Below, in pieces: positions 21,650-63,459 of a stretch of 64,000 nt of DNA. Numbering within the stretch: position 1 is the first letter of the stretch; each line of letters opens with the position of its first letter. The stretch is taken from NCBI GenBank assembly GCA_964543705.1, contig CAZIZP010000006.1, forward strand, positions 16-64,015. Direction: 5' to 3'. The notes below the pieces were generated by a model. It saw only the letters and a list, made by a program, of their open reading frames with translations. It was not told the origin of the DNA and did not search any database. The stretch is from an uncultured Chitinophagaceae bacterium (lineage in GTDB: Bacteria; Bacteroidota; Bacteroidia; Chitinophagales; CAIOSU01). A program made the position numbers and the translations under genes.

Positions 21650-24619
21650 TTATCTTAACAAGGTTACGCTTCCTGTTAAAGTTTGAATATTCAGGTCGGT
21701 GGTAACAAACTTTAAATAATATACATACACGCCCTGTTCCTGTTCTTTACCTTTAAAGGTGCCATCCCAAATTTGTGTTGGGTCTTTCGTTTCAAATACT
21801 TTTTGTCCCCAACGATTGTGTATGGTTAAATAAAACTCTTTAAACGAGCCACCATAAATCTGAAACAAATCGTTTTCGCCATCGCCATTGGGCGAAAAAG
21901 CATTTGGAATAAACACCGGTACTTCAGGGCTGGTGTTTATAGTTACTGAATCTTGCGCTTCACAGCCAAATTCATTGGTATAAACAAGCGTTACTATTGT
22001 GGTATCGTCAACTCTTACTGTAGGGCTTTCGCAATCTGTACAACTTAAAACATCTTCAGGCTGCCACGAATAGCTTACATTACCGCTTGCCGCTGGGCTA
22101 ATTACTGGTGTAATTTGAATACCGCTTCCACGGTTTACTGTGGTATCATTGCCTAAATCTACAGTTGAAGGCGAGCCATAAACAATATTTACGGTATCGC
22201 TTGCCAAACAGCCATTGGCATCGGTAACTACTACTACATAACTGCCTGAAGTATCAGCAGAAAGTGTTTGTGTGGTATCGCCTGTATTCCATTGATAACT
22301 TACAAAACTGCTTCCTGCATCTAGGGTAACTAAGATGTCTTCGCAAACAATAATATCGTTACCAAGATTTACCGGTGTAGCGGCAATTTCATTTACCGTA
22401 AATGTAGCTGTTCCGGTGCAAGTGGCATCAGCAGCTGTTACACTGTAAGTGCCCGCTTGTGTTACAGTAATAGAATCATTGGTGCTGTTATCACTCCAGG
22501 TATAAGTAGTGCCTCCTGTAGCGGTAAGTACTGTGCTTGTGCCGCTACAAAAATCTGCATTACCATCTATAGTTACTACAAGGCTCGAAGTTTCGGTAAC
22601 TACTGCAGAAGCTGTTCCGATGCATCCGTTGGCATCGGTAGCCGTAACATCATAGCTGCCCTGTGTAACAGTTATAGCGGCCGTTGCATCGCCTGTATTC
22701 CACAAATAAGTATCGCCACCACTTGCAGTTAAGGTAGTGTTGCCGCCTATGCAGTAATTCAACAAACCATTAATGCTAATTACAGGCAGTGCATTTTCGA
22801 TAACTGTAGCATCGGCTGTGGCTGTGCAGCCATTGGCATCTGTTCCGGTTACGGTGTAGTTGCCTTGTGTAACCGTAACAGCAGCAGTTGCATCGCTGGT
22901 ACTCCACAAATAACTGTTGCCTCCGCTTGCGGTAAGGGTGGTATTGCTTCCTGCGCAATAACTCAAGGTGCCATTAATTGCAATAGCAGGGGCAGCACTT
23001 TCTGTTACACTGGCAGAAGCTGTTCCGGTGCAGCCGTTGGCATCGGTAGCGGTAACGGTGTAGTTGCCCTGTGTAACGGTAATGGCAGCCGTAGTGCTGT
23101 TGCCGGTATCGTTCCATACATAGCTGTTACCCCCGCTTGCAGTAAGCGTGGTGTTACCGCCCGGGCAGTAACTTAAATTTCCTGCAATATTCACGGTTAA
23201 GCTGGTAAGTTCTGTTACGGTTGCGGTTGCCGTGTCGGCACAACCGTTGGCAGCAGTAACCAATACCACATAACCACCTTGTGTAACGGTTACGCTGGCT
23301 GTATTGCCAATATTATTTCCGCCTAAATCGAACCAGGCATAGTTGCCCCCGCCACTGGCAGTAAGGGTAGTGTTGCTTCCGGTGCAATAGGTTAAATTGC
23401 CGCTGATAGCAGCAGTAGGCGCGGTAAGTTGTGCATCGTTGCTGAAAGCGTTGCTTGTGCCCGAATCGCAGTTGCCATCGCTGGCAATAACGGTATAGTT
23501 GGTTCCGGGTGTAGTGCCGCTGATTACCCCCCCTGCACCTGCTGTGGGGCCTGCGGGCGAAAAAATATAAGTAAGCGATGCATTATAATTGGTAATAGTG
23601 CTGCTGCCTGCTGCTGTGCAGCTTGCCGCAACAGTAGTAATGGTAGGTATTGCCGGAGGGGCAGTTTGCGCTGCATTGCTGAAAGCAGCACTTGCCGGAG
23701 AATCGCAACCATTTTCTCTTGCAATAACGGTATAGCTGGTTCCGGTAGTCATGCCGTTTATAGCACCACCTGCGGCTACTGTAGGCCCTGCGGGCGTAAA
23801 CACATAAGTTACGTTTGCATTGTAATTGCTAATAGCACTGCTGCCTGCTGCTGTGCATGTGGGTGGGGTTGATCCTATGGTTGGGGTAGGCGGTAAAACC
23901 ACCGGACCACCATAAGTAATTAAAATGCCCCCTGCAGCGCCACGGCCACCATTGCTATCGCCACCGCCTGCACCGCCACCACCATATACCGCACCGGGAT
24001 TATTAGTACTGGCACCACCTGCACCGCCATTAGGCCCTGCCGCTGAACCACCGGCACCGCCACTGCCCCCGCTGCCATTGTTTCCAGCCCCACCGGTTGT
24101 ATTGGTAGTGCCGCCACTTGCAGTTCCACCGGCACCACCTGAACCGGTGCCTCCACACGACTCCCCTTCTCTTCCTCTTTGTCCGCCATTCGCTACTAAA
24201 TTGATAGGATTACCTCCTGAATCTGTACCTGTAAACGTAGTGTTTCCTCCGTTAGAACCCGGGTCGCCATCGCTTAAATCTGAACCGTTTCCGCCACCAC
24301 AACCCCCTGAACCAATGGTGTAAGTAAAAGTAGCTCCGGGCGTAACAGGAAAAGTTCTGGTAGCAAAGCCACCGGCACCGCCACCGCCACCACCTCTGGT
24401 GTTACAAATACCACCACCACTACCACCGCCACCACCACCGGCACCACCGCCACCGCCATATACTTCAACAGTAATAGAAGTTACACCACAGGGTACCGTC
24501 CAAGTGCCCGATGCGGCTGCGGCATTACAGTTGGCAGCACCGTTTAAGGTTTCATCTTGTGCGGTGGCATTAAAAAAACTGAATAATACAAATAGCAGAA
24601 TAGTAATAAGTGCTTTCAT
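21650..24619 (-). CDS. T9SS type B (CHU_C / gliding-motility-associated C-terminal domain) surface protein with N-terminal glycine-rich domain and Ig-like repeats
   Basis: 989 aa. Signal peptide MKALITILLFVLFSFFNATAQ. GTWTVPCGVTSITVEVYGGGGGAGGGG...GILITYG glycine-rich domain. 2 x about 85-aa and 6 x about 70-aa repeats (LTASGGNSY.W...ITVTQGNYTVTATDANGC). C-terminal IPNAFSPNGDGENDLF...NRWGQKVF...WDGTFKG...GVYVYY is a type B sorting domain. Confidence 0.9.
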   Translation of the reverse strand: MKALITILLFVLFSFFNATAQDETLNGAANCNAAAASGTWTVPCGVTSITVEVYGGGGGAGGGGGGSGGGICNTRGGGGGGAGGFATRTFPVTPGATFTYTIGSGGCGGGNGSDLSDGDPGSNGGNTTFTGTDSGGNPINLVANGGQRGREGESCGGTGSGGAGGTASGGTTNTTGGAGNNGSGGSGGAGGSAAGPNGGAGGASTNNPGAVYGGGGAGGGDSNGGRGAAGGILITYGGPVVLPPTPTIGSTPPTCTAAGSSAISNYNANVTYVFTPAGPTVAAGGAINGMTTGTSYTVIARENGCDSPASAAFSNAAQTAPPAIPTITTVAASCTAAGSSTITNYNASLTYIFSPAGPTAGAGGVISGTTPGTNYTVIASDGNCDSGTSNAFSNDAQLTAPTAAISGNLTYCTGSNTTLTASGGGNYAWFDLGGNNIGNTASVTVTQGGYVVLVTAANGCADTATATVTELTSLTVNIAGNLSYCPGGNTTLTASGGNSYVWNDTGNSTTAAITVTQGNYTVTATDANGCTGTASASVTESAAPAIAINGTLSYCAGSNTTLTASGGNSYLWSTSDATAAVTVTQGNYTVTGTDANGCTATADATVIENALPVISINGLLNYCIGGNTTLTASGGDTYLWNTGDATAAITVTQGSYDVTATDANGCIGTASAVVTETSSLVVTIDGNADFCSGTSTVLTATGGTTYTWSDNSTNDSITVTQAGTYSVTAADATCTGTATFTVNEIAATPVNLGNDIIVCEDILVTLDAGSSFVSYQWNTGDTTQTLSADTSGSYVVVVTDANGCLASDTVNIVYGSPSTVDLGNDTTVNRGSGIQITPVISPAASGNVSYSWQPEDVLSCTDCESPTVRVDDTTIVTLVYTNEFGCEAQDSVTINTSPEVPVFIPNAFSPNGDGENDLFQIYGGSFKEFYLTIHNRWGQKVFETKDPTQIWDGTFKGKEQEQGVYVYYLKFVTTDLNIQTLTGSVTLLR

Positions 24620-24888: not shown

Positions 24889-25075
24889 TTTGGCATTTAG
24901 ATGTTAGCTGTTAGTTTTATGTTTTAAGTTATCAGTTATCAGTTTTTGGTAGAGCCTTTAGCCTTTAGCTATTAGCCTTTAGTTTTCAGGAAAGCCAAGT
25001 CCCCCTTTGAAGGGGGCAGGGGGATGATTTTTGAGTTTTGAATTTCGATTTTTGAATTTGTTTAGGATTTAGCTT
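24889..25075. repeat. Composite heptad-phased low-complexity element (TTWTCAG/TTAGCCT heptads, GC hairpin CCCCCTTTGAAGGGGG, ANTTTTG heptads)
   Basis: Read directly. About 14 in-phase 7-mers lie at 24889-24990. A hairpin lies at about 25001-25016. ATTTTTG AGTTTTG AATTTCG ATTTTTG AATTTGT lies at 25027-25061. The element is homologous in inverted orientation to 49501-49690. Confidence 0.8.
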
Positions 25076-25128
25076 TCCTGTTAAAATACTTCCCGTTATA
25101 GGGCTTTTAGTATGGCAAAAGGTGGCGA

Positions 25129-25156
25129 TTTGTTAAAAATGAAATAAGTATATTTT
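25129..25156 (+). promoter_or_regulatory. Promoter-like TTTG-N16-TATATTTT inside the conserved leader, pointing into 42-bp array A
   Basis: Resembles the Bacteroidota -33 TTTG / -7 TAnnTTTG, with the last base T not G and the spacer shorter than the reported optimum. The same motif, spacing and downstream ATG (19 nt) recur at locus B. Confidence 0.35.
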
Positions 25157-25187
25157 AAGTAAGACTTACAGAACCATGCTATCGCTA

Positions 25188-25302
25188 CTCCAACTTTGGA
25201 TATGCCCTTCCAGACGTCTGAAACCCCGACTCCAACTTTGGATATGCTCTTCCAGAGGTCTGAACCCCCGACTCCAATTTTGGATATGCTCTTCCACGAG
25301 TG
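25188..25302. repeat. 42-bp tandem array A (about 2.7 copies), reverse complement of array B
   Basis: Units CTCCAACTTTGGATATGCYCTTCCAGACGTCTGAAACCCCGA. The conserved leader at 25078-25187 is about 90 percent identical by eye to the reverse complement of 47846-47952. Confidence 0.9.
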
Positions 25303-25615
25303 TGAAACTGCATTACGAATTATTAGATAAGTGAAACACGAAAAAGGAAAGGCACCGGCAACAAGCGTATTGGCCCTAAATGCTACATACTTTGCTATGG
25401 TATGTTTTTTTAACATAACTACTTGCTGAAAAGAGGCTATGGAAAAAATTGCATTTCAAATATAACAATTAAAACTATGTAAAAAGAAAATTTTTGCGCT
25501 GAAGCTAACCTGGTGGCGATTGCCGGGCTGTATGTATTCCATGCTGCAAAGGTGCAATTGGCATGGCTACTCGCATAATGAAATTATGAACTATAAAAGG
25601 AGGATAGTATTTTCA

Positions 25616-47516: not shown

Positions 47517-47845
47517 GCACTCGTGAAAGAGCATATCCAAAGTTGGAGTCGGGGCTCCAGACGTCTGGAATGGCATATCCAAAGTTGGAGTCGGGGGTTC
47601 AGACGTCTGGAAGAGCATATCCAAAGTTGGAGTCGGGGTTTCAGACGTCTGGAAGGGCATATCCAAAGTTGGAGTCGGGGTTTCAGACGTCTGGAAGAGC
47701 ATATCCAAAGTTGGAGTCGGGATTTCAGACGCCTGGAAGGGCATATCCAAAGTTGGAGTCGGGGTTTCAGACGTCTGGAAGGGCATATCCAAAGTTGGAG
47801 TCGGGGTTTCAGACGTCTGGAAGAGCATATCCAAAATTGGAGTAA
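47517..47845. repeat. 42-bp tandem array B (about 7.5 copies, no spacers); each unit holds two palindromes
   Basis: Unit starts at 47531, 47573, 47615, 47657, 47699, 47741, 47783 and 47825 give a period of exactly 42. The unit is GCATATCCAAAGTTGGAGTCGGGGTTTCAGACGTCTGGAAGR. It contains the perfect 12-bp palindrome CCAGACGTCTGG and TCCAA-AG-TTGGA. Confidence 0.95.
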
Positions 47846-47873
47846 CGATAGCATGGCTCTGTAAGTCTTACCT

Positions 47874-47901
47874 AAAATATACTTTTTCCATTTTTAACAA
47901 A
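47874..47901 (-). promoter_or_regulatory. Promoter-like TTTG-N16-TATATTTT in leader B, pointing (minus strand) into array B
   Basis: The motif, the spacing and the 19-nt distance to the conserved ATG (47852-47854) match locus A. Confidence 0.35.
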
Positions 47902-47968
47902 TCGCCACCATTTGCCACATTATAAACCCTATAACGGGAAGTATTTTAACAGGTAAAAGACTTGCTTT

Positions 47969-48033
47969 TTCATTAAGCCTTCCAAGTCGCCCCAGCTCAG
48001 CACAAGGCTATGCGGGAACCTTGGAAGAACAGG
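47969..48033 (+). repeat. 65-bp hairpin repeat element, copy H2
   Basis: TTCATTAAGC-CTTCCAAG-TCGCCCCAGC...CTATGCGGGAAC-CTTGGAAG-AACAGG. It shares its flanks with H1 and its core with the reverse complement of H3. Confidence 0.75.
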
Positions 48034-48056
48034 AACTTAATATTACTGTATTTAGC

Positions 48057-48090
48057 AAAAAAAACGAGCAATATTATTTGCTCGTTTTTC
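48057..48090 (-). terminator. Rho-independent (bidirectional-looking) terminator after the MORN/YwqK-like gene
   Basis: AAAAAAAA-CGAGCAA-TATTAT-TTGCTCG-TTTTTC: a 7-bp stem with A-run and T-run flanks, about 100 nt downstream of the stop at 48184. Confidence 0.7.
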
Positions 48091-48183
48091 TATTTTCTGT
48101 GAAAATGATTTCTTTATTTTATTGGGCTTTTAGAAAGTGTTTTTGCTAAAAAGTGATGTTTTGATACATTACCCATTACCATC

Positions 48184-49044
48184 TTATTCGTAAATAAATT
48201 GAAAACTATTAACATGCTCTTCTTTAACAAAATTATTATCATCTAGTAATTTAGCTTTTACTTCAAATATATGTTGCCCCTTTTTTATAAAGTCATTAGA
48301 ATACACACTGTAGTATTTGTTATTAGAAGATATTTCTTCCCATTTCGAATTAAATCCATTTATTCTAATAAAAACTTCTGATTTAAATTCAGGCGGTACT
48401 ACAGGATAAACATGAACCAAAAACTGTTCATCAACCTTATAAATAAAATCATCTTCTTTTCTTACATGAATTAAAGGAGACATAGCCCCATCTTCACTCA
48501 GAAACACTCCATGATCATATTGACGTACATAAACTAAACGCCCTGCAAGATCGAAAAATTCATAATTAATAATTTGCCCATCTAAATTAAATTCATATTG
48601 ATGAGATAATTGTTTGCCATTTTTCCAGTATTCAATTGACTTAATGGATTTATCCTTTACAGTATCGCTATCAAAATACCAAACCCAAACACTGTCTTTA
48701 AACCCATTTTTATTATTTCCAATATATTCAAGATTACCACTATTATAATATCCTTTCTGTGTACCTTCTTTCTTCCCGTTAATATATAATACCTCGACCA
48801 TTTTTTTCCCATTAGGATGATAAAATTTCAAAACTCCATCAACTATAGTATCATCTTTTACAATTCCATCAACTATGGTATTATTCTTCACCAACTTATA
48901 TGGCAACTCACTCTCAATGGTGCCGTCAGGATAGTATCTTATTGAAACATTATTATTTTTTATATCTTCGTCTTTCTTTGCATGTTCTCTCTGTTGACAT
49001 GAAATCCCTAATAAAAAAAGTAGCATTAGCAGACATCTATTCAT
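48184..49044 (-). CDS. MORN-repeat-variant (YwqK-family, antitoxin/immunity-like) lipoprotein
   Basis: 286 aa. Lipobox LLGISC. Repeats YPDGTIESELPY, FYHPNGKKMVEVLYINGKKEG, GYYNSGNLEYIGNNKNGFKDSVWVWY, IEYWKNGKQ. Sampled lines give about 25-28 percent G+C. Confidence 0.75.
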   Translation of the reverse strand: MNRCLLMLLFLLGISCQQREHAKKDEDIKNNNVSIRYYPDGTIESELPYKLVKNNTIVDGIVKDDTIVDGVLKFYHPNGKKMVEVLYINGKKEGTQKGYYNSGNLEYIGNNKNGFKDSVWVWYFDSDTVKDKSIKSIEYWKNGKQLSHQYEFNLDGQIINYEFFDLAGRLVYVRQYDHGVFLSEDGAMSPLIHVRKEDDFIYKVDEQFLVHVYPVVPPEFKSEVFIRINGFNSKWEEISSNNKYYSVYSNDFIKKGQHIFEVKAKLLDDNNFVKEEHVNSFQFIYE

Positions 49045-49196
49045 ATATTATACCTATTGTTTTATTCTTTCTGGATGGTTTCTTTCTTCAGTCGGAGTTC
49101 CATTATGAGGTACCGCAATTCCGCTGCTGTCTTTAAAAACACCTTCGCAACCATCTTTACATCTAAATATTGTACCTTCAGATTTATTAAATACAA

Positions 49197-49263
49197 CCTG
49201 TTCTTCCAAGTCTTCCCGCATAGCCATGAGCGTTTGCTGGGGCGACTTGGAAGCTTTTATGAA
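49197..49263 (-). repeat. 65-bp hairpin repeat element, copy H3 (inverted relative to H1/H2)
   Basis: The plus strand reads CCTGTT-CTTCCAAGTC-TTCCCGCATAGCC...GCTGGGGC-GACTTGGAAG-CTTTTATGAA. Its reverse complement matches H2 (CTTCCAAGTCGCCCCAGC...CTATGCGGGAA). The stem is 10 bp and perfect. Confidence 0.75.
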
Positions 49264-49500
49264 AAAAGAAGTCTCTGACTTCTTTACATTTAAAACTATA
49301 AATCCCCCTACTGTAGTAGCATCCGCTACTACCCAAAACCCTAAAGCATCCGCTTATATTTTTCATCTTGTTTCAAGATAAGTATTTTCTAAAATATTTA
49401 CTTCACCCATTTTTTTAAATCCACCATAATCAGTGCTATCCTTTAATCCATCTCATCTGCGATGCTGACATACTTTTTTGAATAAACTCAATTGAGAGAA

Positions 49501-49690
49501 ATGCTAAATCCTAAACAAATTCAAAATACAAAGCTCAAAATTCAAAAAGCTAATGGCTCTAGCAAAAAACTGATAACTGATTACTGAAAACTGATAACTT
49601 AAAACATAAAACTAAAGGCTAATAGCTAAGGGCTAACGGCTCTACCCAAAACTGAAAACTGATTACTGAAAACTGAAAACTTATTACATA
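49501..49690. repeat. Heptad-phased low-complexity element (CAAAnnn, CTGAWWA, CTAAnGG heptads), inverted homolog of 24889-25075
   Basis: CTGATAA CTGATTA CTGAAAA CTGATAA CTTAAAA CATAAAA CTAAAGG CTAATAG CTAAGGG CTAACGG ... CTGAAAA CTGATTA CTGAAAA CTGAAAA. The end GCTAAATCCTAAACAAATTCAAAA is the reverse complement of the locus A end. Confidence 0.8.
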
Positions 49691-49813
49691 ATACATTCCT
49701 GCCTATAAGCCATTTCATTGTAATTCAAAAAATATTTTTCGCTTCCGTGAAACTCATTTTTGTTTTCTGCGTACAAGGCAGAAACTATTGTGTAATTAAA
49801 ACTATTTTGAATC

Positions 49814-51595
49814 ATGGTAACAAAGAAGATTTCTATGTATGGAAGGCTCTCTAAAATGGTAATCACAGCATTATCATTCTCACTTTTCTTCCCTGTATTT
49901 GTAAACGCGCAAACTGCTACAACCAAAAAGGCAGACATCTGGTATTTTGGCGACAAGGCCGGTCTCGACTTTTCGGGCGGTAACCCTGTGCCTTTAACCA
50001 ACGGTGTTTTGCAGTCTTTTGAAGGCTCGGCCGTGGCAACTACAGAAGCGGGACAACTATTATTTTATTCTAACGGTGGCAGCACTCCATATCAGGGAGC
50101 AATCTGGAACCGTAATCACCAGATGATGCCTAATGGCAACTTAACCGGTGCAGGTGGCTGTAACAGTTCTATTCAGTCATCGTTAATATTGCCTTTACCT
50201 AACAGCAGCAGCAGACATTATTTGTTTACTACCGACTGTATGGAAAATGGCGCAAATGGCGGTTTACGCTATAACATTATCGATATGAATTTAGATGGCG
50301 GCTTAGGCGATGTGGCTGTTAAAGGCAGAAAACTAGCCGATGCGGTAGATGAATCATTAACTGCTGTTCAGCATGCCAATGGTAAAGACTGGTGGGTAAT
50401 AGCTCATAAAATGCATTCCGATTCATTTTTTGTACATCATTTAACTGAAAACGGAATTACCGGTGTAGTTAAAACCAGAATTGGCAATACTACTCCTGAT
50501 TATGCAGGTGCTTTAGTGGCTTCTTCTGATGGAAAAAAATTAGTGCATGCCGGGCAAAGCTTTACCTCATTGTTTAAATTCGACAATGCTACAGGAAAAA
50601 TTACCGACCATGTAGATTTAGGAACAGCCGGTTATACTGCCGCCTTTTCACCAAACTGCAACATGTTATATGTAGGCGATGGTGTAGGTAAAAATATTTA
50701 TCAGTTTACTTTAGCTGCTGAAGATATTGCTTCAACTAAGTTTCATGTAGGTACTATTGATGCAACCGGTGTTGGTGGCATGCAATTAGGCCCTGACGGT
50801 AAAATTTATATTGCACGTTTTCTTAGCAGCAATTCTCTTAGCGTAATTGCTGACCCTGACAGAAGAGGTTCTCGTTGCGCTTTTGTTGATAAAGGAATTA
50901 ACCTGGGCGGTAAAATTGCTAAAGGGGGCTTGCCTAACTTCCCTAACAATTATGTAGGAAAATGTGCAGCTTCTTTACCTACCAGCGGAACAGTAATTAC
51001 TTCTTCAGCTCCATTAAACATCAGAGTTCAAAGTATAGTAGGCAATGGTGCCACTATTGTTTGGAATCCGACTCCGGTAACATCTTTAGGCTACACCGTT
51101 TTATATCGTGAAAAAGGTGCTAAAGAGTGGACTGCTGAAAACACTTATGACAACAGCATTTTCATTAGCGATTTGAAAACCAATAGCGACTACGAAGTAG
51201 CAGTTATTGAAAAAGAAGAAGCTGATGCTGATTACATTACAGTTACCGACCACTTGGTAAATAACTTAATACCGGTAAGCAACACTACTGCTGAAAAGAA
51301 AAACTTTGCAACAGTAAGTTTAAGAAGCAAAGCCGATTTCACAGTGGCTCCAAACCCTGCAAGTACAGTTGTAACACTTGACTTGAAAAACATTAACAGC
51401 GAAGTAAAAACTTATGTACGCATTACTGATGTATCGGGTGCAGAAGTTTACAGCGAAGTATTAAATGCTGAAAATGTAAACCACAGCATTAATACCGGTA
51501 ACCTGAAAGATGGTATGTACTTTATCTCAATTCTTTCTGATACCAACGATGGTAAGAAAGTTTTAGAAACTAAAAAATTATTGGTGGCACACTAA
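49814..51595 (+). CDS. Secreted beta-propeller-like protein with FN3-like module and T9SS type A sorting domain
   Basis: 593 aa. The start is uncertain; Met8 or Met15 give a better signal peptide (...FFPVFVNAQ). N-terminal ADIWYFGDKAGLDF. C-terminal FTVAPNPASTVVTLDL tail. Confidence 0.8.
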   Translation: MVTKKISMYGRLSKMVITALSFSLFFPVFVNAQTATTKKADIWYFGDKAGLDFSGGNPVPLTNGVLQSFEGSAVATTEAGQLLFYSNGGSTPYQGAIWNRNHQMMPNGNLTGAGGCNSSIQSSLILPLPNSSSRHYLFTTDCMENGANGGLRYNIIDMNLDGGLGDVAVKGRKLADAVDESLTAVQHANGKDWWVIAHKMHSDSFFVHHLTENGITGVVKTRIGNTTPDYAGALVASSDGKKLVHAGQSFTSLFKFDNATGKITDHVDLGTAGYTAAFSPNCNMLYVGDGVGKNIYQFTLAAEDIASTKFHVGTIDATGVGGMQLGPDGKIYIARFLSSNSLSVIADPDRRGSRCAFVDKGINLGGKIAKGGLPNFPNNYVGKCAASLPTSGTVITSSAPLNIRVQSIVGNGATIVWNPTPVTSLGYTVLYREKGAKEWTAENTYDNSIFISDLKTNSDYEVAVIEKEEADADYITVTDHLVNNLIPVSNTTAEKKNFATVSLRSKADFTVAPNPASTVVTLDLKNINSEVKTYVRITDVSGAEVYSEVLNAENVNHSINTGNLKDGMYFISILSDTNDGKKVLETKKLLVAH

Positions 51596-59532: not shown

Positions 59533-60758
59533 TGGGTAGTTTTTTAAATACCATAACCTCTGTTCATCAATTAATATTATTCTGTTCGGTACTGGTAGTG
59601 GTTTCGCTTCCCTTCGGAAAAAATTTTAGCACCATACCCATGATATTGTTAGTTATATCATGGTTGTTTAATTTCAAGAAAGAAAATATTGTTGCCTTAA
59701 TAAAAGAAAAATACTTCTGGATTTTTACAGCATTATTCTGGATGGCGTTTATAGGTGTACCCTTTGCCAACAATACTGCCCGTGCTGCTTTCATTATTAA
59801 GTTGTATTTGCCACTATTAATATTTCCTGTTGTTTTTTTTACCACAACCATAAGTAAACAAAACCTGCTTTCTATTTTTCGATGGTTTATTATTGGTGCT
59901 TTTGCAGCCACAGTTTGGTGCATTTTGTTGGCTGCTTATCACTCTTATAATGGAGAAAAAAATGCTTTTTTCTATACCAAGCTTTCTATTATTCACCCCA
60001 CTTACTTTGCTACTTATCTCAATTTTGTACTTATACTTTTAGGCAACTACTTTGCCACACAACACCAAAAACTAAGCCGTTTAAAAAAGATATTACTTAC
60101 ACTGCTAATAGCCTATTTTATAGTATTTATTATTTTGCTTTCTTCACGCGTTGCCATTATTTCAATTGCATTTGTGTTTAATGGCTTGGTAATTTTTCAC
60201 TTTCTGAAAAAGCGTTTTGCAACTGTTACTTTTATAGTACTTATTTCTTTAAACTTAATTCCGGTATTGGTAGCAATAAACAGCCCGATAATTGAAAAAC
60301 GTTTTTCAGAATTACAACACTTAAATAAAATGAAAAACAACAGCATAATTGAAAATAGTACCAACAGCCGACTTATTATTTGGAAAGCAGCTTTCAGTTT
60401 AATAAAAGAAAATTTTTGGACAGGCCTTGGTTCAGGCGATGTTACCGATGAACTGGTAAAAACTTATGAAGAAGATAATTTTAAAAAAGGGCAACAAAAA
60501 CGCTACAATGCACACAATCAATACTTGCAGGTTTGGCTGGCTTATGGTGTGTTTGGCTTGCTTATTTTTCTTTCAGGCTTTTATATTTTTTATGCTGCTG
60601 CCATACAAAATGACGATAGTGTTTATCTCATTTTTCTAATTCTTGTTTCATTAGTATTTCTTACCGAAACATTTTTAAACAGCCAGAGCGGTGTGGTGTT
60701 TTTTGCTTTTTTCAATAGCCTGCTGTTTGCTTTTAACAAAGCGAAAGCAACTAAGTAA
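59532..60758 (+). CDS. O-antigen ligase / Wzy_C family membrane protein
   Basis: 408 aa with a TAATG overlap with the previous gene. Polytopic. The periplasmic loop SRLIIWKAAFSLIKENFWTGLGSGD...YNAHNQYLQVWLAYG is typical of the family. Confidence 0.75.
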   Translation: MGSFLNTITSVHQLILFCSVLVVVSLPFGKNFSTIPMILLVISWLFNFKKENIVALIKEKYFWIFTALFWMAFIGVPFANNTARAAFIIKLYLPLLIFPVVFFTTTISKQNLLSIFRWFIIGAFAATVWCILLAAYHSYNGEKNAFFYTKLSIIHPTYFATYLNFVLILLGNYFATQHQKLSRLKKILLTLLIAYFIVFIILLSSRVAIISIAFVFNGLVIFHFLKKRFATVTFIVLISLNLIPVLVAINSPIIEKRFSELQHLNKMKNNSIIENSTNSRLIIWKAAFSLIKENFWTGLGSGDVTDELVKTYEEDNFKKGQQKRYNAHNQYLQVWLAYGVFGLLIFLSGFYIFYAAAIQNDDSVYLIFLILVSLVFLTETFLNSQSGVVFFAFFNSLLFAFNKAKATK

Positions 60759-61323
60759 GTGCCTTTAATATCATGCTGTCAACTGTAAAGTGCAAGTCTC
60801 TGGGTTTTAGTTTGCGCCATAAAAGAGCATTCAGTTTTTCTCCGGCACTTAAGTAGTAAAAAATATTGTTGCTGCGCATTTCATCTAAAACATGTTGCCT
60901 GAAATTAATTAATGCAATCCAGCCACCTTCATCTTTTATATCATCAAACCATTCTTCATAATAGCAATCGTCTGATGCATGAAAATTCAATACGTTTTCA
61001 CCAATTAAAATAAAACGCACAATGCCCTCTTTCAGCATAGGGTCAATAATATCACGCTTCAAAATCATAATATCGTTGGTAATGGCATCATTCCATTCGC
61101 CAATAAATTCTATAATAGCAAACTGTTGTTCGTAATCAGCAAATAATACCTTTAAATACATGGTTGAAGAGCCAAAGTAATCCCACTGCGGATGAATGTA
61201 GTAGTTATAAATCGTATTGGTGTATTCAAACTCGTTATGTTGGGTTTCAAAAAAAGGCGATAACGGGTCTTCTTCAGCAGTATAGTAATCGCGCCAGCCG
61301 TAATAAGGTTCTATTTCGTGCAT
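60751..61323 (-). CDS. Conserved-looking hypothetical cytoplasmic protein
   Basis: 190 aa, acidic and aromatic-rich, with no recognised motif. Its 3' end overlaps the convergent ligase gene by 8 nt. Confidence 0.6.
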   Translation of the reverse strand: MHEIEPYYGWRDYYTAEEDPLSPFFETQHNEFEYTNTIYNYYIHPQWDYFGSSTMYLKVLFADYEQQFAIIEFIGEWNDAITNDIMILKRDIIDPMLKEGIVRFILIGENVLNFHASDDCYYEEWFDDIKDEGGWIALINFRQHVLDEMRSNNIFYYLSAGEKLNALLWRKLKPRDLHFTVDSMILKALT

Positions 61324-61329
61324 TTAAAG

Positions 61330-61371
61330 TTTTTAGTTATCAGTTTGCAGTTATCTGTATTCAGTTTTCCG
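61330..61371. repeat. Six in-phase TTWTCAG-type heptads directly abutting the start codon of 60751..61323
   Basis: TTTTTAG TTATCAG TTTGCAG TTATCTG TATTCAG TTTTCCG. These are the same heptad words as at 24889-24990 and 49501-49690, in the same sense orientation relative to the downstream gene. Confidence 0.7.
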
Positions 61372-61599
61372 GTAATAAAGTTATAGTTACAAGCTAATTT
61401 TTCATAAACAGCTATAAAAACATTTTACCCAACACCATAAAAAACTATTTGTTCCTGAAACGCTACAAGGCGTGTAATAATTGTTGAAAACACTACTTGG
61501 TATTGTCTTTTAATGGTTGTTTCTTATTGTTATTATTGCATACCTAAAGCACAAGGTGCTTAACTTAGAACATACAACTTATAACTTACTACTTTCAAA

Positions 61600-63459
61600 A
61601 TGGCACAACAACATAATTATACCGAAGACAATATTCGCTCGCTCGATTGGAAAGAGCACATTCGCCTGCGCCCGGGCATGTATATTGGCAAACTAGGCGA
61701 TGGTTCTTCGCCCGATGATGGCATATATGTATTGCTGAAAGAAATTATCGACAACTCGATAGACGAGTATGTAATGGGTTTCGGAAAACGCATAGACATA
61801 AAAGTTTCTGATGAAGAAGTGCGTGTACGCGATTATGGTCGTGGCATTCCGTTGGGTAAGGTTATAGATTGCGTTTCAAAAATTAATACAGGCGGAAAGT
61901 ACGATAGCGAAGCCTTTCAGAAATCTGTAGGGCTGAATGGCGTGGGTACAAAGGCAGTAAACGCACTTTCTACACGCTTTATCGTTACAGCTTTTCGCGA
62001 TGGACAATGCAAGAAAGCCGAATTTTCAAAAGGCGAATTAGTAGTAGATCATAAGATTACCAAAACCGATGAGAAAGACGGCACAGAAATGGTTTTTACA
62101 CCCGATGATACGGTGTTTAAGAAGTTTCATTTTATTGCTGAATATGTAGAAGCGCAAATAAGAAACTATACGTATTTGAATGCAGGCTTAGCCATTTATT
62201 TCAACGGGCAACAATACATTTCTAAAAACGGCTTACTGGATTTATTAACCGATAAAACTGATGCCGATGAATTGCGCTACCCCATTATTCATTTAAAAGG
62301 AAAAGATATTGAAGTAGCCTTAACACACGGCAATCAATATGGCGAGGAATATTATTCTTTCGTAAACGGACAATACACTACACAAGGCGGCACACACTTA
62401 GCGGCTTTCCGTGAAGCAGTAGTAAAAACGGCTCGCGATTTTTATAAAAAAGATTTCGATGCCGAAGATATTCGCACTGCTATTATTGGTGCTATAAGTG
62501 TTCGTGTGCAAGAGCCTGTTTTCGAGTCGCAAACCAAAACCAAATTAGGCTCGCTCAATATGGGTCCCGATGGCCCAACCGTGCGTGGCTACATCAACGA
62601 TTTTGTAAGAAAAGATTTAGACGATTATTTACACAAGCACCCCGAAACAGCCGATATTCTTTTAAAAAGAATTTTGCAAAGCGAGCGTGAACGTAAAGAA
62701 ATAGCCGGCATTAAAAAGCTTGCCAATCAACGAGCTAAAAAAGCCAATCTGCATAATAAAAAACTGCGCGACTGCCGCTACCATTACGATGAAAACAAAG
62801 GCGAGCTTTCCGATAAATCTACCATATTTATTACCGAGGGCGATTCGGCAAGCGGCTCTATTACCAAGGCCCGCAATCCTGAATATCAGGCTGTGTTTAG
62901 TTTGCGTGGTAAGCCGCTTAACTGTTTCGGCTTAACCAAAAAAGTAGTGTATGAAAACGAAGAATTTAATTTGCTGCAACATGCTTTAAATATTGAAGAC
63001 AGCATGGACGACCTGCGCTATAACAAAGTAGTAGTGGCAACCGATGCCGATGTAGATGGCATGCACATTCGTTTGTTGCTGCTTACTTTCTTCTTACAGT
63101 TTTTTCCCGATTTGGTAAAGAAAGGGCATGTGCATGTTTTAGAAACGCCACTTTTCCGTGTAAGAAACAAAAAAGAAACCATTTATTGCTACAGCGAAGA
63201 AGAGAAGCAAGAAGCAATGAAGAAGCTGGGTAGCAAGCCGGAAATAACCCGCTTTAAAGGTTTAGGCGAAATTTCTCCCGATGAGTTCGGACAGTTTATT
63301 GGCGATGATATTCGCCTTACCCGTGTTTCTATGGATAAAGAAATGGCCATAAAAAACCTGTTAGAATATTACATGGGCAAAAACACTATGGAACGCCAAA
63401 ACTTTATTATAGAAAACCTGAGAATAGAAATGGACAGGCCCGTTGAGGCTGAAGTATAA
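61600..63459 (+). CDS. parE: Type IIA topoisomerase subunit B, topoisomerase IV ParE-type
   Basis: 619 aa. GHKL ATPase LRPGMYIG...EIIDNSIDE...GRGIP...GLNGVG. Toprim EGDSASG...[10 protein letters not shown]. The short length and N-terminus fit Bacteroidota ParE rather than GyrB. Confidence 0.88.

What the first reader, a model, noticed from the sequence alone, without database searches (positions are those of the whole stretch)
49501..49690. Heptanucleotide-phased low-complexity elements upstream of three genes, always in the same sense orientation
- **Locations:** There are three runs of degenerate 7-mers, at 49501-49690, 24889-25075 (inverted) and 61330-61371 (inverted).
- **Orientation:** On the sense strand of the downstream gene they read CTGAWAA / CTAAnGG / CAAAnnn. 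The distances to the start codons are about 124 bp, about 270 bp and 6 bp respectively.
- **Stop codons:** Because 7 is not a multiple of 3, the embedded TGA/TAA/TAG triplets fall in all three frames. In the two long elements this holds on both strands.
- **TTTG phasing:** The opposite-strand ANTTTTG heptads place the -33-like TTTG motif every 7 bp.
- **Candidate roles:** It could be a frame-independent translation insulator, phased T-tract bent DNA in a UP-like element, or a slippage-prone phase-variation tract.
Basis: partly seen in the sequence, partly recalled or inferred. Interest (0 to 1): 0.45.

Follow-up and report, generated by a model that had tools for sequence, protein, structure and literature searches.

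The report
Mosaic 7-base repeat arrays between genes
The three tracts are real copies of a genome-wide family of A-rich 7-base tandem repeats, a known but still unexplained kind of bacterial non-coding repeat. Here they form the tail of a larger duplicated repeat element and are not a control device built for the three neighbouring genes.

Summary
**Observation.** It is confirmed. All three tracts are 7-nt phased and lie at the stated distances from the start codons. Period 7 is strongly over-represented genome-wide: 125 tracts, against 2 to 31 for periods 6, 8 and 9.

**Class.** The unit CTGATAA is a rotation of TAACTGA. This places the tracts in the heptamer-repeat class already described in Cyanobacteria, Beggiatoaceae and a few Bacteroidetes (STRR; MacGregor 2015). 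This scan has also noted the class many times on other DNA.

**New details here**
- The two long tracts are inverted paralogous copies of one polar composite: a 42-bp hairpin array, then a leader, then the heptad mosaic.
- Same-genus genomes lack both arrays at the orthologous genes.
- The same heptad words form the inverted arms around all six four-helix-bundle (23S rRNA IVS protein) genes of this genome. The window tracts themselves are unpaired and gene-less.
- The A-rich strand is the sense strand in 29 of 39 tracts within 150 nt of a start. There is no bias after stop codons.

- Stops in all six frames also occur in 72% of random intergenic segments, so an insulator is not indicated.
- There is no 10 to 11 bp A-tract phasing, so bent DNA is not indicated.
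- The tracts have at most two perfect units, which argues against phase variation.

**Verdict.** This is an ordinary member of a known, unexplained repeat class.

The parts
49501..49690 (+). Heptad mosaic B. It holds an AAATnCn module (about 49505-49547), a short linker, then 18 in-register heptads (49565-49690) of the CTGAWAA, AAAACAT, CTAAnGG and CTCTACC types.
24889..25075 (-). Heptad mosaic A, the inverted paralogue of B. It has the same module order, plus a G+C-rich hairpin module at 25001-25016.
25076..25160 (-). Leader of composite A. It joins directly to the heptad mosaic. The genome holds four copies.
25187..25308 (-). 42-bp tandem array of composite A (2.9 units).
47527..47843 (+). 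42-bp tandem array of composite B (7.5 units).
47841..47956 (+). Leader of composite B. It matches leader A over 116 nt (about 90% identity in the 84-nt blastn match).
47957..49500 (.). About 1.55-kb insert that separates leader B from heptad mosaic B. It carries a MORN-repeat protein gene (48184-49044, minus strand) and copies of another dispersed repeat (49197-49391).
61330..61371 (-). Short CTGAWAA-type tract, 6 nt upstream of a 190-aa gene. It is 20 nt shorter in a same-genus genome.
61562..61598 (+). Short AACTTAn tract that ends 3 nt before the parE-like start. It is conserved in genome G002.
49814..51595 (+). Downstream gene of mosaic B. It encodes a type IX secretion cargo protein (Por_Secre_tail, fn3).
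21650..24619 (-). Downstream gene of mosaic A. It encodes a glycine-rich type IX secretion cargo protein (CHU_C).
60751..61323 (-). 190-aa gene with no Pfam match, preceded by the short tract at 61330-61371.
61600..63459 (+). ParE/GyrB-like topoisomerase subunit gene, preceded by the tract at 61562-61598.

Best explanation
**What the tracts are.** They are copies of a lineage-specific, genome-wide family of non-coding, A-rich heptanucleotide tandem repeats of the STRR / TAACTGA type. The repeats are assembled from a small vocabulary of 7-nt words in a recurring order.

**The two long tracts.** They are the 3' tails of two inverted paralogous copies of a polar composite repeat: a 42-bp hairpin array, then a leader, then the heptad mosaic.

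**How they arise (inferred).**
- The elements arise and change by duplication and recombination between copies.
- They also gain and lose whole units through replication slippage.
- They sit in fast-changing filler DNA at rearrangement junctions.
- They are tolerated rather than required by the neighbouring genes.

**Orientation bias (inferred).** The A-rich strand is preferred as sense strand close to start codons. I read this as a filter. An unstructured, A-rich, G-poor leader is compatible with Shine-Dalgarno-independent translation initiation in Bacteroidota, whereas the U-rich complement is counter-selected.

**Shown versus inferred.**
- Shown: periodicity, dispersal, mosaic order, paralogy of the two long tracts, absence from congeners, orientation statistics and lack of RNA structure.
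- Inferred: the slippage and recombination mechanism, and the selective filter.
For: - **Periodicity.** Period 7 is over-represented genome-wide.
- **Location.** 76 of 96 clusters are intergenic.
- **Dispersal.** Composite segments of 60 to 270 bp recur at more than 20 loci at 88 to 100% identity. Many lie at contig ends.
- **Mosaic order.** Neighbouring tracts share an orientation 80 times and are inverted 5 times.
- **Paralogy.** Window loci 1 and 2 align as two copies of array, leader and heptads. Copy B is split by a 1.55-kb insert.
- **Absence from congeners.** Orthologous genes in same-genus genomes G001 and G002 lack the long arrays and have different neighbours. The flanks of three other composites map to different contigs in G001 and G002.
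- **Turnover.** At one orthologous 5' UTR the heptads differ in number, unit and orientation among three congeners. Tract 3 is 20 nt shorter in G002.
- **No RNA structure.** The A-rich strand RNA is unstructured, with z-scores of +0.25 to +0.8 for the locus 1 array and -0.8 where the G+C hairpin of locus 2 is included.
- **Leader composition.** A general A-over-T skew and G depletion exist only in the last 25 nt before starts.
- **Orientation.** The split is 29 to 10 near starts and 25 to 22 after stops.
- **Distribution.** Three consecutive CTGAWAA units occur in 24 of 401 Bacteroidota genomes sampled, a sporadic spread.
- **Literature.** The same class, with the same unit, is described with unknown function in PMC4679880. 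Heptamer over-representation and the slippage hypothesis are summarised in PMC4692102.
Against: - The sense bias extends to 150 nt, well beyond the 25-nt zone of general A-richness. A positive role in the leader is therefore not excluded.
- The tract that abuts the parE-like start is conserved between two species.
- The composites have a strict internal polarity: the 42-bp array lies 5' of the heptads in 16 of 19 cases. Neutral slippage does not explain this. It hints at a directional process such as transcription or a polar copying mechanism.
Confidence: 0.6

Rival explanations
1. **Cis-acting leader element.** The A-rich heptads are transcribed in the 5' UTR. There they enhance or regulate translation, either as an unstructured ribosome landing pad or as a binding site for an S1-, Csp- or CsrA-like RNA-binding protein. 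MacGregor proposed this for TAACTGA repeats.
For: - The sense bias is 29 to 10 within 150 nt of starts.
- All four tracts in the window are in sense orientation.
- The tract at 61562-61598 ends 3 nt before the parE-like start and is conserved in G002.
- The RNA is unstructured.
- In G001 a CTAAnGC tract lies between a conserved TATCTTTG -7 box and the start codon.
- The proposal is published in PMC4679880.
Against: - The two long arrays end 123 and 269 nt from the starts.
- Orthologous genes in G001 and G002 lack them.
- At the C24 locus the long array lies upstream of the conserved -7 box, outside the likely transcript.
- Nine of 15 composites face a gene end.
- Tracts after stop codons show no orientation preference.
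Confidence: 0.2
2. **Relics of cassette arms.** The tracts are solo or degraded arms of intervening-sequence-like cassettes. Such cassettes carry a four-helix-bundle (PF05635) gene between inverted heptamer arms, and the arms pair in RNA and are cut by RNase III.
For: - All six PF05635 genes of the genome are bracketed by inverted heptad arms.
- Five of them rank in the top 16 of about 2900 ORFs for flank complementarity.
- The same holds for 26 such genes in 20 related genomes: the median score is 38.5, against 15 for neighbouring ORFs.
- Three cassettes use the same words as the window tracts. One match is a 22-nt identity to the AAATCCTAAACAAATTC module.
- One cassette folds with its arms paired, z = -2.97.
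- The Coxiella IVS carries variable heptamers at its RNase III site (PMC4990558).
Against: - No PF05635 remnant is detectable in the window.
- The long arrays have no inverted partner nearby, and their RNA does not fold.
- The pair 61330-61371 and 61562-61598 does not form a significant hairpin, z = -0.45.
- The arrays are much longer than cassette arms and follow an ordered mosaic.
Confidence: 0.1
3. **Contingency locus.** Slippage of the 7-nt units changes promoter or leader length and switches the downstream surface-protein genes on and off.
For: - Both long arrays precede type IX secretion cargo genes.
- Tract 3 differs by 20 nt between two species.
- Indels in 7-nt steps are reported for such repeats in PMC4679880 and PMC4990558.
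Against: - The window tracts have at most 2 identical units in a row. The genome maximum is 4.
- Five assembled contigs from four sequencing runs, probably of one study, are identical to the window over the stretches they cover (tract 3, its parE-side partner and the MORN-gene insert). Their contigs stop short of the long array at 49501-49690, and locus 2 was not sampled.
- The arrays lie more than 120 nt from the starts.
Confidence: 0.05
4. **Architectural DNA.** The arrays act as a bent or UP-like element, or as a frame-independent translation insulator.
For: - A-tracts recur regularly.
- Stops occur in all six frames of both long arrays.
Against: - AA/TT power at 10 to 11 bp is unremarkable, while at 7 bp it lies at the 99th to 100th percentile. 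Units 7 bp apart lie about 240 degrees apart on the helix, so bends cancel every three units (inference from B-DNA geometry).
- 72% of random intergenic segments also carry stops in all six frames.
Confidence: 0.05

Closest known systems
TAACTGA direct repeats of Beggiatoaceae, Cyanobacteria and a few Bacteroidetes (MacGregor 2015, PMC4679880)
   Same: - The unit is identical, since CTGATAA is a rotation of TAACTGA.
- The repeats are intergenic and mixed with other heptamers.
- Orientation is forward near starts.
- The taxonomic distribution is sporadic.
- Close relatives lack the arrays at the same sites.
   Different: - Here the units are degenerate and embedded in an ordered mosaic with other words.
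- They are linked to 42-bp arrays.
- The long arrays are far from the start codons.
STRR (short tandemly repeated repetitive) heptamers of heterocystous cyanobacteria, and the long heptameric simple-sequence repeats of Xanthomonas and Nostoc (Rehm 2015, PMC4692102)
   Same: - They are dispersed intergenic tandem heptamers.
- Heptamers are over-represented relative to other unit lengths.
- Their function is unknown.
   Different: - Those units are G-rich and can form quadruplexes, and they are often long and perfect.
- These units are A-rich and degenerate, and the predicted RNA is unstructured.
23S rRNA intervening sequences carrying an S23p / four-helix-bundle ORF (for example Coxiella burnetii, PMC4990558)
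   Same: The same heptad words form the inverted arms around all six PF05635 genes of this genome. The Coxiella IVS also carries variable tandem heptamers at its RNase III site.
   Different: The window tracts have no ORF, no inverted partner and no predicted stem.
BIME / REP mosaic elements of enterobacteria
   Same: Both are non-coding intergenic mosaics built from a few modules in a recurring order. A G+C-rich hairpin module is present in copy A.
   Different: - The building blocks here are direct heptamer runs, not palindromic units.
- No associated transposase was sought or found.

Membership tests
Dispersed heptanucleotide tandem repeats (STRR / TAACTGA class) | Tandem direct repeats with a 7-nt unit | tested here: met
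Dispersed heptanucleotide tandem repeats (STRR / TAACTGA class) | Period 7 over-represented genome-wide relative to neighbouring periods | tested here: met
   Tract counts are 125 for period 7, against 23, 2 and 31 for periods 6, 8 and 9. TRF array counts are 110, against 6, 9 and 27.
Dispersed heptanucleotide tandem repeats (STRR / TAACTGA class) | Mostly intergenic | tested here: met
   76 of 96 clusters and 93 of 117 tracts are intergenic.
Dispersed heptanucleotide tandem repeats (STRR / TAACTGA class) | Unit TAACTGA | tested here: met
   AACTGAT and AAAACTG are among the four commonest units. Exact (CTGAWAA)x3 occurs 7 times in the genome.
Dispersed heptanucleotide tandem repeats (STRR / TAACTGA class) | Length changes in 7-nt steps between close strains | tested here: inconclusive
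   There is a 20-nt difference between two species. Contigs of the same strain are identical.
IVS-like four-helix-bundle cassette | PF05635 ORF between the arms | tested here: not met
   tblastn with the six proteins of this genome finds nothing in the window.
IVS-like four-helix-bundle cassette | Inverted complementary arms that pair in RNA | tested here: not met
   Folds of the long arrays give z-scores of -0.8 to +0.8. The short pair gives z = -0.45. Neighbouring tracts are co-oriented 80 to 5.
IVS-like four-helix-bundle cassette | Arms built of heptamer words | tested here: met
   The window tracts share words with the arms of three cassettes.
Phase-variable simple-sequence contingency locus | Long run of identical units | tested here: not met
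   The window has at most 2 identical units in a row, and the genome at most 4.
Phase-variable simple-sequence contingency locus | Length heterogeneity within a population | not testable with these tools
The assembled contigs are identical.
Intrinsically bent A-tract DNA / UP element | A-tracts phased at 10 to 11 bp | tested here: not met
   AA/TT power at 10, 10.5 and 11 bp lies between the 9th and 94th percentile. At 7 bp it lies at the 99th to 100th percentile.
BIME/REP-like mosaic element | Recurring order of modules at many loci | tested here: met
BIME/REP-like mosaic element | Palindromic REP units and a REP-associated transposase | not tested
   Only one G+C hairpin module was seen. No search for a transposase was made.

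The most novel reading that the evidence does not exclude
The heptad mosaic, the 21/42-bp hairpin arrays and the heptamer arms of the four-helix-bundle cassettes are products or substrates of one machinery that works in a 7-nt register. Supporting points are:
- All over-represented tandem periods in this genome are 7, 21 and 42.
- The 42-bp arrays sit next to heptad clusters 15 times more often than chance.
- The order of array then heptads is polar in 16 of 19 cases.

The composite would then be a so far undescribed polar non-coding element, possibly a transcribed and processed unit, and not passive slippage debris.
Probability: 0.2. Interest if true: 0.65.

Novelty: new member of a known kind. 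Interest (0 to 1): 0.3.

Why it matters
Heptamer repeats are over-represented in many bacteria, and their origin and role have been open since 1990. This genome adds a Bacteroidota case with clear anatomy: an ordered mosaic, a polar link to 42-bp arrays, and word sharing with the arms of four-helix-bundle cassettes. It also supplies orientation statistics that separate leader-proximal tracts from all the others. For annotation, the practical point is that these tracts should not be read as regulatory sites of the adjacent surface-protein genes.

Tried and rejected
- **Rfam.** The whole window at gathering thresholds, and six other composite loci at E up to 1, gave no match.
- **Promoter and terminator scan.** Around locus 2 it returned only chance-level promoter hits, plus the G+C hairpin as a terminator-like site on both strands.
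- **Replication direction.** Array strand shows no link to local GC skew or to regional gene strand.
- **Composites as promoter cassettes.** I rejected this as a general rule, because 9 of 15 composites face a gene end.
- **Empty versus filled sites in congeners.** This failed to give exact boundaries, because the flanks map to different contigs.
- **Strain-level length variation.** Exact-protein look-ups returned only contigs identical to the window.
- **Loose tract detector.** It missed the short cassette arms. I replaced it with a flank-complementarity test.

Full report
**Observation**

The three tracts exist at the stated coordinates. Tandem Repeats Finder reports period-7 arrays inside both long tracts and a period-14 array in the short one.
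- Read on the A-rich strand, 49565-49690 is 18 consecutive heptads in one register. The unit type changes along it: CTGAWAA, AAAACAT, CTAAnGG, CTCTACC, then CTGAWAA again.
- The gaps to the start codons are 123, 269 and 6 nt.
- A fourth tract, 61562-61598, ends 3 nt before the parE-like start. It is also in sense orientation.

The window lies in a 3.72-Mb, 36% G+C draft genome of an uncultured Bacteroidota bacterium. Type IX secretion domains are present, and ParE is at most 76% identical to named relatives.

Period 7 stands out across the whole genome.
- Self-match tracts number 125, against 23, 2 and 31 for periods 6, 8 and 9.
- Strong TRF arrays number 110, against 6, 9 and 27.
- The commonest units are AAAATTC, AACTGAT, AAAACTG and AAAGGCT.
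- Most clusters are intergenic, 76 of 96.

**What the tracts belong to**

CTGATAA is a rotation of TAACTGA. MacGregor (PMC4679880) described intergenic TAACTGA direct repeats in several groups.
- They are often mixed with other heptamers.
- They occur in Beggiatoaceae, Cyanobacteria and five Bacteroidetes.
- Orientation is forward near starts in some species.
- The arrays are absent from close relatives.
- No function is known.

Rehm et al. (PMC4692102) summarise the general over-representation of heptameric repeats and the polymerase-slippage idea.

In a sample of 401 Bacteroidota genomes, three consecutive CTGAWAA units occur in 24 genomes from 18 of 180 genera. This is a sporadic distribution.

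Notes from this scan show that the class has been met many times on other DNA, including mosaic arrays in Bacteroidota.

**Anatomy in this genome**

Segments of the window arrays recur at more than 20 loci at 88 to 100% identity, often at contig ends. The loci are mosaics of a few modules in a recurring order:
- an AAATnCn run;
- either a G+C hairpin or a 97-nt non-heptad core, which has about 20 copies;
- CTAAnGG;
- CTCTACC;
- CTGAWAA;
- AAAACAT.

Neighbouring tracts are co-oriented 80 times and inverted 5 times.

The genome also holds 51 tandem arrays of period 41 or 42 and 38 of period 21.
- Eighteen of the 51 lie within 400 bp of a heptad cluster, against 1.2 expected. The maximum was 6 in 1000 permutations.
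- On the A-rich strand the 42-bp array lies 5' of the heptads in 16 of 19 pairs, p = 0.004.

Window loci 1 and 2 are two inverted copies of such a composite. In copy A the 42-bp array, the leader and the heptads are contiguous. In copy B a 1.55-kb insert carrying a MORN-repeat gene separates the leader from the heptads. An earlier first-reader note pointed to this; I checked it here.

**Relation to genes**

The A-rich strand is the sense strand in 29 of 39 tracts within 150 nt upstream of a start (p = 0.003). After stop codons the split is 25 to 22. General A-richness and G depletion cover only the last 25 nt before starts. There is no link to GC skew or to regional gene strand.

Downstream of the polar composites lie 6 gene starts and 9 gene ends.

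The orthologues of both genes next to the long arrays lack the arrays in the two same-genus genomes, and they have other neighbours there. The flanks of three further composites map to different contigs in those genomes.

At one orthologous leader a TATCTTTG -7 box is conserved between G000 and G001 (G002 has a diverged sequence there). The heptads between the box and the start codon differ in number, unit and orientation among the three congeners. In this genome the long array at that locus lies upstream of the box.

Tract 3 is 20 nt shorter in G002, whereas the parE-proximal tract is conserved. Contigs of the same strain from four sequencing runs, probably of one study, are identical over the stretches they cover, which include tract 3 but not the two long arrays.

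**Link to four-helix-bundle cassettes**

Earlier notes of this scan proposed that heptamer arrays bracket PF05635 genes, so I tested this here.
- The genome has six such genes. All six are bracketed by inverted heptad arms.
- Some sit inside housekeeping operons: accB-accC, grpE-dnaJ and era-der.
- Five rank in the top 16 of about 2900 ORFs for flank complementarity.
- In 20 related genomes, 26 such genes have a median flank score of 38.5, against 15 for 49 neighbouring ORFs. Their period-7 arms use many different units.
- Three of this genome's cassettes use the same words as the window tracts.
- One cassette folds with its arms paired, z = -2.97.
- The Coxiella IVS carries variable tandem heptamers at its RNase III site (PMC4990558).

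The window tracts, however, have no PF05635 remnant. They have no inverted partner and no significant fold.

- Insulator: stops occur in all six frames, but they do so in 72% of random 190-nt intergenic segments too.
- Phased TTTG: it is limited to one module.
- Bent DNA: AA/TT periodicity is extreme at 7 bp and ordinary at 10 to 11 bp.
- Phase variation: identical units never exceed 2 in a row in the window or 4 in the genome.

**Conclusion**

The tracts are ordinary members of the known, unexplained heptamer-repeat class. Here they form the tail of a duplicated polar mosaic element in fast-changing filler DNA.

My preferred reading (0.6) has two parts:
- The elements spread by duplication and recombination and are resized by slippage.
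- Near starts, a selective filter favours the A-rich strand in leaders.

A true leader function (0.2) and a cassette-relic origin (0.1) remain possible.

Two features are unexplained and form the most novel reading left open: the numerical link of periods 7, 21 and 42, and the polarity of the composites.

Noticed in passing
whole genome; window 25187-25308 and 47527-47843: The genome holds 51 tandem arrays of period 41 or 42 and 38 of period 21, with many unrelated unit sequences. Periods 28 and 35 are not enriched. Many 42-bp units are two 21-bp halves, each with a small hairpin. Eighteen of the 51 lie within 400 bp of a heptad cluster, with a polar order.
   Followed up: partly
G000 contigs C16:94980-95350, C23:27151-27247, C35:5707-5803, C33:27002-27097 and others: A 97-nt non-heptad core has about 20 copies at 77 to 100% identity. 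It is always embedded between the AAATnCn and CTGAWAA runs and contains short hairpins. It has no Rfam match and is absent from the window.
   Followed up: partly
window 49197-49391: Another dispersed repeat family lies inside the 1.55-kb insert. It has dozens of partial copies in the two same-genus genomes.
   Followed up: no
window 49767-49799 and 61461-61483: A similar motif lies upstream of both the 49814 gene and the parE-like gene, and both copies are conserved in G002. It is a small hairpin around TACAAGG followed by GTGTAAT. It could be a shared promoter or operator.
   Followed up: no
G000 C4:131561-131959, C12:51448-51687, C25:29568-29966, C15:25899-26258, C8:71353-71712, C8:131969-132328: Four-helix-bundle (PF05635) gene cassettes with inverted heptamer arms are inserted between genes of housekeeping operons: accB-accC, grpE-dnaJ, era-der and a thiolase operon. 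The arms abut the neighbouring stop and start codons.
   Followed up: partly
L064:5011-5259 (Pseudopedobacter beijingensis parE locus): A four-helix-bundle gene lies directly downstream of parE in this distant relative.
   Followed up: no
G000 C18:66427-67570: Long runs of AAACCCn and AAATCCT heptads occur here, including the plant-telomere-like word CCCTAAA. They belong to the same mosaic family.
   Followed up: no
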